From Candidatus Freyarchaeum deiterrae (GTDB taxonomy: Archaea; Asgardarchaeota; Jordiarchaeia; Jordiarchaeales; Jordiarchaeaceae): a stretch of DNA of 64,000 nucleotides. The translations under genes were made by a program, and so were the position numbers. Shown piece by piece: positions 19,497 to 28,204 of the stretch. Under the pieces are notes generated by a model that worked only from the letters and a program-made list of their open reading frames with translations, was not told the origin of the DNA and did no database searches. The stretch is taken from assembly GCA_037305845.1 (NCBI GenBank), contig CP147778.1, positions 2,560,001 through 2,624,000 on the forward strand, given 5' to 3'. Position 1 is the first letter of the stretch; every line of letters starts with the position of its first letter.

Positions 19497-19718
19497 ATGG
19501 TGAATATTTTGATTGAAGTGCGGAAACTAGATAATCAGGGCAGAATAGTTCTTCCGAAGGAGTGGAGAAAAAAGTTCGGCGGTGAAGTGGTAGTCCTAAC
19601 GCTAGAGAATAAAATAGAAATTTTCCCGAGGAAAGGAAACCTGCTGAAGTTCATAGATTTAATCGAGGTTGAAGAACTCAAAGAATGGAGTGAAATGAAG
19701 AAAGAGCGGCTAAGCTAG
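19497..19718 (+). CDS. AbrB/MazE-type antitoxin (orphan)
   Basis: RKLDNQGRIVLPKEWR. Confidence 0.8.
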   Translation: MVNILIEVRKLDNQGRIVLPKEWRKKFGGEVVVLTLENKIEIFPRKGNLLKFIDLIEVEELKEWSEMKKERLS

Positions 19719-19884: not shown

Positions 19885-21007
19885 ATGAAAGATTTAGAAT
19901 TCCTTAATGCTTTCAAGGACCCCAAATTCGCGAGCAAAATCTCCGAAACCATAAAGAGTTTAGCTCCGGAAGAAAGGGTGAAGTTTGTTCATATATGCGG
20001 GACAGCCTAGAAGACTCCCCTAGACCTCGAAACATGAACAAACTATAAGCAAAAACGGCTTGAGAACCCTTCTTCCAGACAACGTCGAAGTAATAGCAGG
20101 CCCAGGATGCCCGGTCTGCGTCACACCATCCATGGTTCTAGATGAAACTATCGAGCTCGCAAGGAGAGGCATCACCATCACGGCTTTCGGCGACCTCCTG
20201 ATGGTCCCCGCAACCCAGACCTCCCTCTACAGTTTAAAGGCAGAAGGAGCCGACATACGAATAGTTTACGGTCCACACGACGCCGTGGAAATCGCCGAAA
20301 AAAACCCCGACAAAGACGTAGTCTTCTGCGCAGTAGGATTCGAAACCACAGCCCCCGGAATAGCATCCGAGATACTCAGAGGCGTCCCCAAAAACTTCAG
20401 TATCATAAGCGCACAAAGACTAATCCCCCCAGCAATGGAGCTCCTCATGGGCTTAGGAGACCTCCAAATAGACGGATTCATCTGCCCAGGACACGTAGCA
20501 ACCATAATAGGAATGAAACCCTTCAGACGCTTCTCAGATGCATACCACATGCCCGCCATCATATCCGGCTTCGAGCCAAACGACGTCCTCCTCACCCTAG
20601 CAATGCTCCTCAAACAGCTAAAAGACGAAGACCCCAAATGCGAAAACGAATACACCCGACTAGTCAAAGAAGAAGGCAACCTCAAGGCCCAAAAAATACT
20701 CGGAGAAGTTTTCGACGTTGCCAACGCCCACTGGCGGGGAATAGGACGAGTACCCGAATCCGGCTACGTGCTCAAAAAAGAATTCGAAGAACACGACGCA
20801 GAAAAAAAGTACGGAATCACAATAAAAAAATCCGTAGACATACACCCCGGATGCAACTGCCACCTAGTCATGATTGGAAGAATATACCCACCGGAATGCA
20901 AACTATTCGGAAACGTGTGCAGACCAGAAAAACCATACGGACCATGCATGGTCTCAAGCGAAGGAACATGCAGAATCTACCACAAATACGGAGCACACTT
21001 CAAATAA
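19885..21007 (+). CDS. hypD: hydrogenase maturation protein HypD, two exons (19885..20003 + 20032..21007; 364 aa after splicing)
   Basis: Exon 1 encodes MKDLEF...KFVHICG; the junction codon AC|A gives T; exon 2 continues HEQTISKNGLRTLLP...GPGCPVCVTP, GFETT, PGHV, C-terminal Cys cluster and GPCMVSSEGTC. Confidence 0.92.
20004..20031 (+). other. putative 28-nt bulge-helix-bulge intron in hypD
   Basis: Central helix CGGG(19998-20001)/CUCG(20026-20029); 3-nt bulges ACA(20002-04) and AAA(20030-32). Cutting after the second bulge nucleotide gives GGG ACA CAT = G-T-H. Confidence 0.85.
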
Positions 21008-21590
21008 ATAATATAATAGCGGTCCCATTTCTTCAGAAACTCATGCTCCATAAACAAGAGAAATTATTAGAAAAAAGAAGTTTCCTCTAAAAAGGAAGAT
21101 GATGATAATGATAACTGCAATGATGATGATAATGATAATGATGCAGAAAGAGAAGGAGAAAGAAGAGAAGGAGAGAAAAGAGAAGAGGAAGAAGAAGATT
21201 AGAAGAACTTAACTTTATGAAGAAGGAATTTTTTCTCAGGATTAGAAAACCTAGAACAATTCAACGAACGAACGAGAAAAGCTAATCGTAGATTCTTCTA
21301 TTATTTTATTCTCTTGATTTTTGCCAAATCTTTATACGTTTACAAAATGTTAATCAAATTGAGAATTTAAGGATTGGAAGAATGTTAATGAATCACATGA
21401 CGCCTCAGACACATTATATTATAGATGAGAAGTGCTGAAGTAAGATGGAGGGCATCTCCAAGGGGGTAAGCGTCTGTAAGATAATACAGCATATTAGCTT
21501 GTTCCGCAATTTTTTTTTGGATCCTATTATTTTATTAGATAGGAAAATATTTATAGATAGTACTCATACTTCCTTGTTTGAGGTTTTTTT

Positions 21591-21818
21591 ATGCGAACTA
21601 CCGTGAAGGTGACAAGAAGGGGTCAAACCACAATTCCCAAAGAGTTTAGAGAAAAACTCGGAATTAAAGAGGGGGACGAGTTAATGGTAGAGTTCACCAA
21701 AGAAGGTTTGCTCTTTAGAGTTATTCCTAAGCTTGAAGAATTGGCTGGCGCATACTCAAAGTTTGGCAAGGTGGAGGAGATTAAAAAAGAGATAGAAAAG
21801 CTAAGAGAGGAATACTAG
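21591..21818 (+). CDS. AbrB-type antitoxin
   Basis: VKVTRRGQTTIPKEFREKLGIKEGD. Confidence 0.88.
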   Translation: MRTTVKVTRRGQTTIPKEFREKLGIKEGDELMVEFTKEGLLFRVIPKLEELAGAYSKFGKVEEIKKEIEKLREEY

Positions 21819-23229: not shown

Positions 23230-23439
23230 ATGATGGATAGGGATAGTCTTATACAGAAGGTTAGATCGTTGCCTGAAGACAGTCTTAAAGAGGTCATGGA
23301 TTTCATCGAGCATCTAGAAGAGAAGAGGAAAACTGGGGAGAGGAAAAAAGAGAAGAAAGACCTCTTAGCAGACGTGATAGGGATTTGTGAAGGTCCTTCT
23401 GACTTGGCGGAAAGGCATGATAAGTATGTCTATGGCTAA
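23230..23439 (+). CDS. DUF2281-like antitoxin
   Basis: SLPEDSLKEVMDFIEHL...DLAERHDKYVYG; overlaps the PIN gene. Confidence 0.8.
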   Translation: MMDRDSLIQKVRSLPEDSLKEVMDFIEHLEEKRKTGERKKEKKDLLADVIGICEGPSDLAERHDKYVYG

Positions 23440-23863
23440 ACTAGTTTTCGTGGACACATGGGCCTGGTTGGCTCTGGCGAATCGGAGGGATTCAAACCAT
23501 AAAAGTGCTGTTAAAAAATATAAAGAAATAAAAGGAGAAGGGTGCAGAATGATTACCTCCGACTACGTGCTCGATGAGGTGATAACAGCTCTCTTCAGAA
23601 ACGTTGTTTTCGTTACTGCAGTTCGATTTATAGAGACTCTATATTCGATGATAAAAAACGACCAGTTAAAGTTAGAGAGAATCGCAGAGGAAAGATTTAG
23701 AATCGCCTGGCAGCTGAGGAAAAAACTGCAAGATAAACCAAATATTTCATTCACAGATTTGACATCTTTTGTTTTGATGCAAGAGTTGGAAATAACCAGG
23801 GTTTTCACCGGCGATGCTGATTTTGAGAAAGTGAACCTAGGATTCGAGATAGTACCAAAATAA
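23432..23863 (+). CDS. VapC/PIN toxin
   Basis: VFVDTWAW, SDYVLDE, SFTDLTS, FTGDADF. Confidence 0.9.
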   Translation: MAKLVFVDTWAWLALANRRDSNHKSAVKKYKEIKGEGCRMITSDYVLDEVITALFRNVVFVTAVRFIETLYSMIKNDQLKLERIAEERFRIAWQLRKKLQDKPNISFTDLTSFVLMQELEITRVFTGDADFEKVNLGFEIVPK

Positions 23864-27318: not shown

Positions 27319-27810
27319 TTAATTACGGGGACGCCCGAGCCACTTGTCTGCCTCTTTTAGTGTTTTTTCCAACTCACTTTGAGATATGGTTTGAGAGTAC
27401 TTGCTTCCGACGACACTTTCCACGATGCCCCCGAAGGATCTTTCATCGTAGGTTGCGAGCATACCTATCTTAAGCTTCATCATAACGGCAATTATCGAGG
27501 CGTCCGTTAAGCTCAACTCTCTTTCCCTGTACTTGGAGAAAATATTGACCGCTCCCTCGTACAATTCTTCGTCCACGAAGATAATCCTCACTCCCGACTT
27601 ACTCACCGAGTCTAGAAAAGCTAGGGCTGCATTAACACCTACTCTGTACCGTAGTAGCGTAGCAGTCTCAGCCACAACGAGTATCGTGGTGAAGACACCA
27701 CCCCACCTCCCCTCTAGAGCGTGAAGTATCAAGCACAGCGAGTCTGGATGATGAATATCCTTTCGATTGTAGAAAGCATAAAAGACCCCAGTATCTATGA
27801 GGATGCTCAA
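27319..27810 (-). CDS. VapC/PIN toxin
   Basis: ILIDTGVF, VVAET, LSLTDAS, ATYDE. Confidence 0.9.
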   Translation of the reverse strand: MSILIDTGVFYAFYNRKDIHHPDSLCLILHALEGRWGGVFTTILVVAETATLLRYRVGVNAALAFLDSVSKSGVRIIFVDEELYEGAVNIFSKYRERELSLTDASIIAVMMKLKIGMLATYDERSFGGIVESVVGSKYSQTISQSELEKTLKEADKWLGRPRN

Positions 27811-28049
27811 TCCTCACTCCTCCGGTACAGTAACTCGTCAACCTGTTCCGAGTCTCTCTCTCCAGCCTCACCAGAAAACCTCAGACTTTCGAAGAACACA
27901 TCAGGGTCTCCTTCCCACCTGTCCAACTCCTTTTCGGCAGTATTAATTATAATCTCCAAGAGCTTAGACATGCTCTTTATACGAAGCTTCCTTTTGAGAA
28001 TCTCTAACCTGTCGCGAACCTCAGGACTAATCCTTATTACAGAACTCAT
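27807..28049 (-). CDS. VapB-type antitoxin (RHH-like)
   Basis: Overlaps the PIN start; SVIRIS..., C-terminal DSEQVDELLY. Confidence 0.75.
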   Translation of the reverse strand: MSSVIRISPEVRDRLEILKRKLRIKSMSKLLEIIINTAEKELDRWEGDPDVFFESLRFSGEAGERDSEQVDELLYRRSED

Positions 28050-28204
28050 ATTACCACTCGCGGAAAATGTTACATGTAACATGTATACATTGTTATATAT
28101 AAATACGCTGGTTCAAAGAAACCAGAAACTGCAATCTTTTGATCAAGTCAAAATCGCCTAAAACTTATTTAGCTCACGATGAGAAGAAAGTGTGACGAAG
28201 AACG

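What the first reader, a model, noticed from the sequence alone, without database searches (positions are those of the whole stretch)
19982..20044. Candidate bulge-helix-bulge (tRNA-type) intron inside the hypD mRNA, splitting the catalytic CGTH motif
Seen: the hypD frame from ATG 19885 reads ...HICGT-A-stop, and the conserved continuation HEQTISKNGLR..GPGCPVC resumes 28 nt later in another frame. The RNA folds into a canonical BHB. The outer exon-exon helix is AUG(19995-97)/CAU(20033-35), extended by AGUUUGUUC(19982-90)/GAACAAACU(20036-44). The 4-bp central helix is CGGG/CUCG, the two 3-nt bulges are ACA and AAA, and the intron stem is G-C plus CUAG/CUAG. Established: the archaeal splicing endonuclease EndA cuts after the second nucleotide of each bulge, and RtcB ligates. 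Applied here (AC|A, AA|A) this removes 20004..20031 and yields GGG ACA CAT, a 364-aa HypD with an intact CGTH motif. The classic archaeal mRNA intron of this type is in crenarchaeal cbf5; I know of none in hypD. Inference: [NiFe]-hydrogenase maturation here depends on, and could be regulated by, mRNA splicing. Other apparently frameshifted genes in this lineage may hide similar introns.
Basis: partly seen in the sequence, partly recalled or inferred. Interest (0 to 1): 0.95.

Follow-up and report, generated by a model that had tools for sequence, protein, structure and literature searches.

The report
tRNA-type intron splits Asgard hypD
The only hydrogenase-maturation gene hypD of this Asgard archaeon is broken in its iron-binding motif by a 28-base intron of the kind normally cut out of tRNAs, one of at least 19 such inserts in its protein genes, so it very probably splices many messenger RNAs, which in the papers I could search is confirmed for the coding region of only one archaeal gene.

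Summary
Confirmed. Removing 20004-20031 at the bulge-helix-bulge (BHB) cut sites gives a 364-aa HypD with an intact CGTH motif; it is the only hypD in a closed 3.58-Mb genome, probably Freyarchaeum deiteterre (Asgard). All 11 genomes of the class carry an insert at the same base (16, 17 or 28 nt), as does one genome of another family (24 nt, in-frame stop). The insert varies but the BHB is kept, and both exons are under purifying selection. Assembly error, pseudogene, frameshifting and ribosome hopping are rejected. A homology-first test found a BHB at all 8 insert-type gene breaks (7 blind, 1 post hoc). I checked 19 such inserts in 17 genes, including cbf5 at its known site, rtcB itself and three in ahcY. 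Two EndA paralogues and RtcB are encoded. Not shown: any spliced RNA (the run finder was closed; assemblies gave only unspliced DNA) or regulation. The energy model favours a relaxed outer helix. The papers searched confirm coding-region BHB splicing only for cbf5. This scan noted the hypD intron and similar Asgard introns before on other genomes.

The parts
19885..20003 (+). hypD exon 1 (39 codons plus AC of Thr40), ends with the Fe-ligand Cys38-Gly39
   Evidence: dN/dS 0.04-0.28 in within-family pairs; gene callers call it as a separate 41-aa peptide
20004..20031 (+). 28-nt BHB intron, frameshifting, with in-frame TAG at 20008-20010
20032..21007 (+). hypD exon 2 (last base of Thr40, then HEQTISKNG to the stop)
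   Evidence: Pfam HypD profile 29-351, TIGR00075 43-367; dN/dS 0.03-0.10
19998..20001 (+). central helix, exon strand CGGG (codons TGC GGG)
   Evidence: TGC GGG in 12/12 intron-bearing loci and 0/17 intron-free loci
20002..20004 (+). 5' bulge ACA, predicted cut AC|A
   Evidence: cut rule from established EndA chemistry
20005..20025 (+). intron inner hairpin (G-C, then CUAG/CUAG, 9-nt loop)
   Evidence: first G-C pair in 13/13 distinct introns
20026..20029 (+). central helix, intron strand CUCG
   Evidence: 51 of 52 pair cells are standard pairs across 13 distinct introns
20030..20032 (+). 3' bulge AAA, predicted cut AA|A
19982..19997 (+). 5' arm of the exon-exon helix (distal 19982-19990; proximal AUG 19995-19997)
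   Evidence: first two outer pairs G-C and U-A in 13/13 introns, but these bases are also fixed by the protein
20033..20044 (+). 3' arm of the exon-exon helix (CAU 20033-35; 20036-44)

Best explanation
hypD is transcribed as a pre-mRNA with a 28-nt archaeal (BHB) intron. The exon end CGGG pairs with CUCG in the intron and two 3-nt bulges flank this 4-bp helix. The two-subunit splicing endonuclease EndA cuts AC|A and AA|A, and RtcB joins the exons to GGG ACA CAU, restoring the Cys-Gly-Thr-His motif whose Cys binds the Fe(CN)2CO precursor on HypCD. Without splicing the ribosome stops after 41 residues. The intron is one of at least 19 in 17 protein genes of this genome, so mRNA splicing by the tRNA machinery is probably routine in this lineage. 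Shown: sequence, geometry, conservation, selection, presence of the enzyme genes. Inferred: cleavage, ligation and a circular excised intron. I think the intron most likely persists as an obligatory, constitutively removed insert, and that such inserts survive or are seen mainly at conserved motifs; regulation is possible but unsupported.
For: Insert at the same base in 11/11 genomes of the class and one outside family, lengths 16, 17, 24, 28 covering all three frame classes, and the BHB cut always restores GGG ACN CAY GAR. 13 distinct introns keep the central helix (51/52 cells; changes are G-C to G-U plus one G-A). Synonymous codons frozen to TGC GGG only where the intron is present, 12/12 versus 0/17. 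Purifying selection on both exons. Single hypD with intact hypC and NiFe large subunits. Homology-first test: 7 of 8 insert-type breaks have a 4/4 central helix, first outer pair and three inner pairs at a deletion within 1 score unit of the best; the eighth resolved post hoc; chance per register 0.00037. cbf5 carries a 32-nt BHB intron in the catalytic Asp codon, the proven crenarchaeal site (PMC2738675). Two EndA paralogues and RtcB; Asgard EndA is of the broad-specificity two-subunit type (PMC5829648).
Against: No spliced RNA seen: protein clusters hold only truncated Jordarchaeales HypD, the JGI scan gave two unspliced forms, and apparent full-length PorA and Rps26e entries were misframed calls on unspliced DNA. 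The strict outer helix is 4.4 kcal/mol above the minimum-energy fold. No two-sided compensatory change in the central helix, whose exon strand is invariant. The 12 genomes are mostly kin (tree needs 2 changes, one origin not excluded). A loose ab initio scan showed no excess over decoys; only a stricter cut-off chosen afterwards did (12 versus 2-6).
Confidence: 0.92

Rival explanations
1. Translational recoding: the ribosome frameshifts or hops over the hairpin, as in phage T4 gene 60, with no RNA splicing.
For: A stop codon lies two codons after the break and inside a hairpin, which resembles a bypass signal (own knowledge).
Against: Take-off and landing codons do not match in any of 12 loci (ACA versus AAA, AGA, AGG, ATT, ATA, AAG; ACT versus ACA). 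Insert lengths fall in all three frames, so no single shift explains them, and a plain shift would leave extra residues inside CGTH. Recoding would not predict 4-bp/3-nt geometry at 19 unrelated sites.
Confidence: 0.03
2. Split gene: a 41-aa peptide and a separately started 315-aa protein assemble into a working HypD.
For: Gene callers annotate the two pieces; TTG 20060 offers a start.
Against: In this genome HEQTISKNG lies upstream of the first start codon of the exon-2 frame, yet is conserved with synonymous changes; the first start varies from -16 to +19 codons or is absent among relatives. The break falls inside the metal-binding motif.
Confidence: 0.02
3. Pseudogene or assembly error.
For: The genome is assembled from a metagenome and holds ordinary 1-nt frameshifts elsewhere.
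Against: Same insert in three independent runs and in all class members; dN/dS far below 1 on both sides; single copy while hydrogenases and hypC are intact.
Confidence: 0.01
4. The insert is removed, but at DNA level or by a nuclease other than EndA.
For: No direct test of EndA here; DNA-excised elements are known in cyanobacterial hupL and nifD (own knowledge).
Against: No intron-free DNA copy in any class member or cluster; no recombinase gene among the neighbouring ORFs I identified (not every ORF was scanned); the insert occurs once in the genome; geometry fits EndA exactly.
Confidence: 0.02

Closest known systems
cbf5 pre-mRNA BHB intron of Crenarchaeota (Aeropyrum, Sulfolobales, Desulfurococcales; Yokobori 2009, PMC2738675)
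   Same: Short BHB intron inside a coding sequence, breaking the codon or motif of a functionally essential residue, missed by gene callers; this genome has a cbf5 intron at that same Asp codon.
   Different: Here the host is a metabolic maturase in an Asgard archaeon, and it is one of at least 19 introns in 17 genes, including a three-intron gene and rtcB. PMC2738675 says splicing was confirmed only for cbf5, with others merely predicted. Splicing is not demonstrated here.
BHB intron in the 5' UTR of Haloferax volcanii HVO_1309 (Schwarz 2020, PMC7714728)
   Same: mRNA substrate of the splicing endonuclease; that paper names cbf5 as the only other mRNA case.
   Different: It lies outside the coding sequence and does not gate the reading frame.
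Multiple non-canonical tRNA introns of Freyarchaeia/Jordiarchaeia and Atabeyarchaeia (PMC11291895; bioRxiv 10.64898/2026.10.13.758758)
   Same: Same lineage, same motif and enzymes, similar sizes, repeated gains.
   Different: Both treat tRNA genes only; the preprint has no occurrence of 'mRNA' or 'cbf5' and says no Asgard intron of its set has been shown spliced.
HAC1/XBP1 unconventional mRNA splicing in eukaryotes (own knowledge)
   Same: A short frameshifting intron cut by an endonuclease and joined by a tRNA ligase (RtcB in animals) switches on a protein.
   Different: Cut by IRE1 at stem-loops, not by EndA at a BHB, and stress-regulated; no regulation or common descent is shown here.

Membership tests
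Archaeal BHB (EndA/RtcB) introns | 4-bp central helix between exon end and intron end | tested here: met
   CGGG/CUCG, pair probability 0.90-0.96; 51/52 cells paired in 13 introns
Archaeal BHB (EndA/RtcB) introns | Two 3-nt bulges on opposite strands closed by inner and outer helices | tested here: inconclusive
   Can form by sequence, inner G-C and outer G-C/U-A in 13/13; the energy model prefers a 5x4 internal loop on the exon side, i.e. a relaxed form
Archaeal BHB (EndA/RtcB) introns | Cutting after the second base of each bulge restores a functional RNA | tested here: met
   364-aa HypD with CGTH; holds for all 12 genomes
Archaeal BHB (EndA/RtcB) introns | Host encodes EndA and an RNA ligase | tested here: met
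   Two EndA paralogues, one over the TIGR00324 cut-off; RtcB present but itself interrupted
Archaeal BHB (EndA/RtcB) introns | Spliced RNA and excised circular intron exist in cells | tested here: inconclusive
Archaeal BHB (EndA/RtcB) introns | Cleavage by EndA in vitro | not testable with these tools
   needs bench work
HypD | N-terminal CG(T/S)H motif plus the HypD domain | tested here: met
   After splicing; Pfam/TIGR hits; motif in 104 of the 120 best homologues; same motif in the T. kodakarensis structure 2z1d; Cys38/Cys41 is the proposed Fe ligand (PMC11565642)
Programmed ribosomal bypass (T4 gene 60 type) | Matched take-off and landing codons | tested here: not met
   0 of 12 loci

The most novel reading that the evidence does not exclude
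This Asgard class routinely splices dozens of protein-coding mRNAs with the tRNA endonuclease and ligase, including multi-intron messages and the ligase's own message, and uses this as a shared post-transcriptional gate on hydrogenase maturation, translation factors and metabolism: a non-spliceosomal mRNA-splicing regime in the prokaryotes closest to eukaryotes. (Widespread splicing alone I put near 0.9; the probability given is for splicing plus a regulatory role.)
Probability: 0.25. Interest if true: 0.95.

Novelty: new variant of a known kind. Interest (0 to 1): 0.82.

Why it matters
Coding-region introns in archaea are known as a single-gene curiosity (cbf5). If these are spliced, an Asgard lineage has introns in roughly 1% of its conserved genes (8 insert-type breaks among about 812 genes tested, a lower bound), with essential enzymes and the ligase itself dependent on splicing. 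That bears on how interrupted genes and endonuclease/RtcB splicing (as in XBP1) arose near the origin of eukaryotes. In practice, every Jordarchaeales HypD I found in the databases is annotated truncated and lacking its iron-binding cysteine, and other genes are probably mis-called as broken, which distorts metabolic reconstructions. The claim can be tested directly: metatranscriptomes from the source soil are published (PMC11291895), and EndA can be assayed in vitro.

Tried and rejected
Searches for spliced products in assemblies all failed: HypD clusters, a junction pattern in JGI contigs, PorA (the 392-aa entries are misframed extensions on unspliced DNA) and Rps26e (the 95-aa entry is unspliced DNA identical to this genome). 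An exact look-up of the spliced protein was left out because it has no reference and would have to be typed. The loose ab initio BHB scan did not beat decoys. In one search two decoy classes scored high only by re-finding true sites one base off, so that decoy table is not a clean null. Five of the 15 breaks were set aside as matches between non-coding shadow frames (four look rRNA-derived; inference) and two are 1-nt frameshifts. A DNA pattern across 301 Asgard genomes found no hypD intron beyond the 12 known; its other 16 matches are not hypD, and the pattern would miss introns after other codons. Truncated hits P0031 and P0009 have no insert. No second convincing mRNA intron inside this window. 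Literature searches found no paper on Asgard mRNA introns; the library lacks most subscription papers.

Full report
Observation. The window sequence matches the finding. The hypD frame from ATG 19885 stops two codons after CGT, and removing 20004-20031 yields a 364-aa protein with HICGTHEQTISK. It is the only hypD in the genome, a single 3,576,204-base contig. Size and relatives' names point to Freyarchaeum deiteterre, the 3.58-Mbp complete Asgard genome of PMC11291895; this identification is an inference. The central helix CGGG/CUCG and the inner stem are predicted with probability 0.9 or more. The proximal AUG/CAU helix is not in the minimum-energy fold and the strict BHB lies 4.4 kcal/mol higher, so the free RNA may present a relaxed motif. 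Asgard EndA belongs to the two-subunit type with the loop that allows relaxed substrates (PMC5829648). The identical insert is in contigs of three independent runs, so it is not an assembly error.

Conservation. All 11 genomes of the class have hypD and all have an insert after TGC GGG AC: 28 nt in the six genomes of this genus, 16 or 17 nt in the five of the sister family. One genome of another family has 24 nt with an in-frame TGA. Seventeen other Asgard loci have none. In every case the BHB cut rule restores Gly-Thr-His-Glu. Among 13 distinct introns the loop and length vary, but 51 of 52 central-helix cells are standard pairs and the first inner pair is always G-C. The Cys and Gly codons are TGC GGG in 12 of 12 intron-bearing loci and in none of 17 intron-free ones, where synonymous codons vary: the RNA helix constrains the exon. 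Kinship inflates this contrast; the tree needs two changes but does not exclude one origin. dN/dS is 0.04-0.28 in exon 1 and 0.03-0.10 in exon 2 where synonymous sites are not saturated. HypC and NiFe large subunits are intact. The cysteine just before the break is the proposed Fe(CN)2CO ligand (PMC11565642; motif aligned to structure 2z1d), so neither half can plausibly work alone.

Rivals. Ribosome hopping fails because take-off and landing codons never match, and frameshifting fails because insert lengths cover all three frames. A split gene fails because HEQTISKNG is conserved although it precedes the first available start here. Pseudogene and assembly error are excluded above.

Genome-wide test. 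Two EndA paralogues and RtcB are encoded. cbf5 carries a 32-nt BHB intron in its catalytic Asp codon, the site proven in Crenarchaeota (PMC2738675), which serves as an internal control. A loose ab initio scan gave no excess over decoy cut sites; a stricter cut-off, chosen after seeing that, gave 12 versus 2-6. To avoid motif bias I sampled 1.2 Mb from two other Asgard genomes, which covered about 812 genes, and located breaks by homology alone. Of 15 breaks, five were non-coding artefacts, two were 1-nt frameshifts and eight were inserts. Seven of the eight have a full central helix, first outer pair and three inner pairs at a deletion within one score unit of the best alignment, chosen from at most five near-equal registers; the chance per register is 0.00037. 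The eighth fits a 34-nt BHB found afterwards. With further sites, and five leads from earlier scan notes that I re-derived, I count 19 inserts in 17 genes: hypD, cbf5, rtcB, pcm, kae1, an HD-domain gene, a leuC-like gene, a CxxC protein, a porA-like gene, a radical-SAM gene, ahcY (three), ychF, nadE, a flavin oxidoreductase, tyrS, rps26e and an endoQ-like gene. These names come from motifs and reference alignments, and most were not scanned against a family library. Lengths are 20-56 nt, plus one of 191 nt. Nearly all split conserved motifs, partly because that is where homology detects them. The rtcB insert (29 nt here, 30 nt with an in-frame stop in the five congeners, absent in the four sister-family genomes found) splits the PD-AHQGYG motif.

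What is missing. I found no spliced RNA. These searches have little power for a rare uncultured soil organism. Nothing here shows regulation.

Comparison with what is known. It works like, and by every testable feature except the energy of the outer helix is, an archaeal BHB intron of the cbf5 type. Schwarz 2020 lists cbf5 and a Haloferax 5' UTR as the only mRNA cases; Yokobori 2009 says others were predicted but unconfirmed. Papers on this lineage describe abundant tRNA introns only. My searches found no report of Asgard mRNA introns, within the limits of the library. This scan has noted the hypD intron on several other genomes, and other introns in this genome, before; those are unchecked AI notes, and I had the hypD, cbf5, rtcB, pcm, kae1, HD and leuC-like results before reading them. 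Two notes mention spliced RNA for other Asgard genes; I did not verify that.

Verdict. A real, conserved, very probably spliced intron (0.92). The mechanism is known; its place in hypD, its scale across the genome and the self-dependent ligase are new relative to the literature I could search. New variant of a known kind, interest 0.82.

Noticed in passing
genome C1 1452824 (- strand), locus L033; congeners L117-L121: rtcB, the ligase needed for splicing, is itself interrupted by a 29-30 nt BHB insert in its PD-AHQGYG motif in all six genomes of the genus, and not in the sister family: a possible self-dependent loop.
   Followed up: yes
genome C1 1483446 (- strand), locus L034: cbf5 has a 32-nt BHB intron in the catalytic Asp codon, the same site as in Crenarchaeota; shared ancestry or repeated gain was not tested.
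   Followed up: partly
genome C1 1876203-1877066 (- strand), locus L103: ahcY has three BHB inserts (56, 29 and 191 nt): a multi-intron prokaryotic mRNA. The 191-nt one is long enough to hide a small RNA; not examined.
   Followed up: partly
L015/L097 hypD; genome ychF C1 2191720; genome rtcB C1 1452824: Three unrelated introns have the same defect: a G-A mismatch at the fourth central-helix pair next to the 5' bulge, suggesting a tolerated variant of the motif.
   Followed up: no
all 19 sites: The first base of the 3' bulge is A in nearly all introns and of the 5' bulge in most, a sequence bias on top of the structure.
   Followed up: no
G016:C67 (L015): A genome outside the class has a 24-nt hypD intron at the same base with an unrelated 7-bp hairpin; independent gain or ancient retention is unresolved.
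   Followed up: partly
window 19497-19718 and 21591-21818: Two small AbrB/MazE-like genes flank hypD; no toxin partner is evident after the first one. The window also has antitoxin/PIN-like pairs at about 23230-23863 and 27319-28082 (read from the ORF list).
   Followed up: no
window 21095-21205: Low-complexity stretch of ATG/ATA-type triplets followed by a purine-only run, downstream of hypD; called as a 34-36 aa ORF in other assemblies.
   Followed up: no
genome C1 28-33 kb, 79-84 kb and 2675-2681 kb: Arrays of short ORF fragments that match each other with net offsets of about 74-77 bases, probably tandem-repeat regions.
   Followed up: no
genome C1 1634526 and 2485068 (- strand): Two 1-nt frameshifts in conserved genes without BHB (a phosphate-uptake-regulator-like gene and a radical-SAM gene); error, pseudogene or recoding not tested.
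   Followed up: no
whole genome: ARAGORN finds only 17 tRNAs, several implausible, consistent with the published heavy tRNA interruption in this lineage.
   Followed up: no
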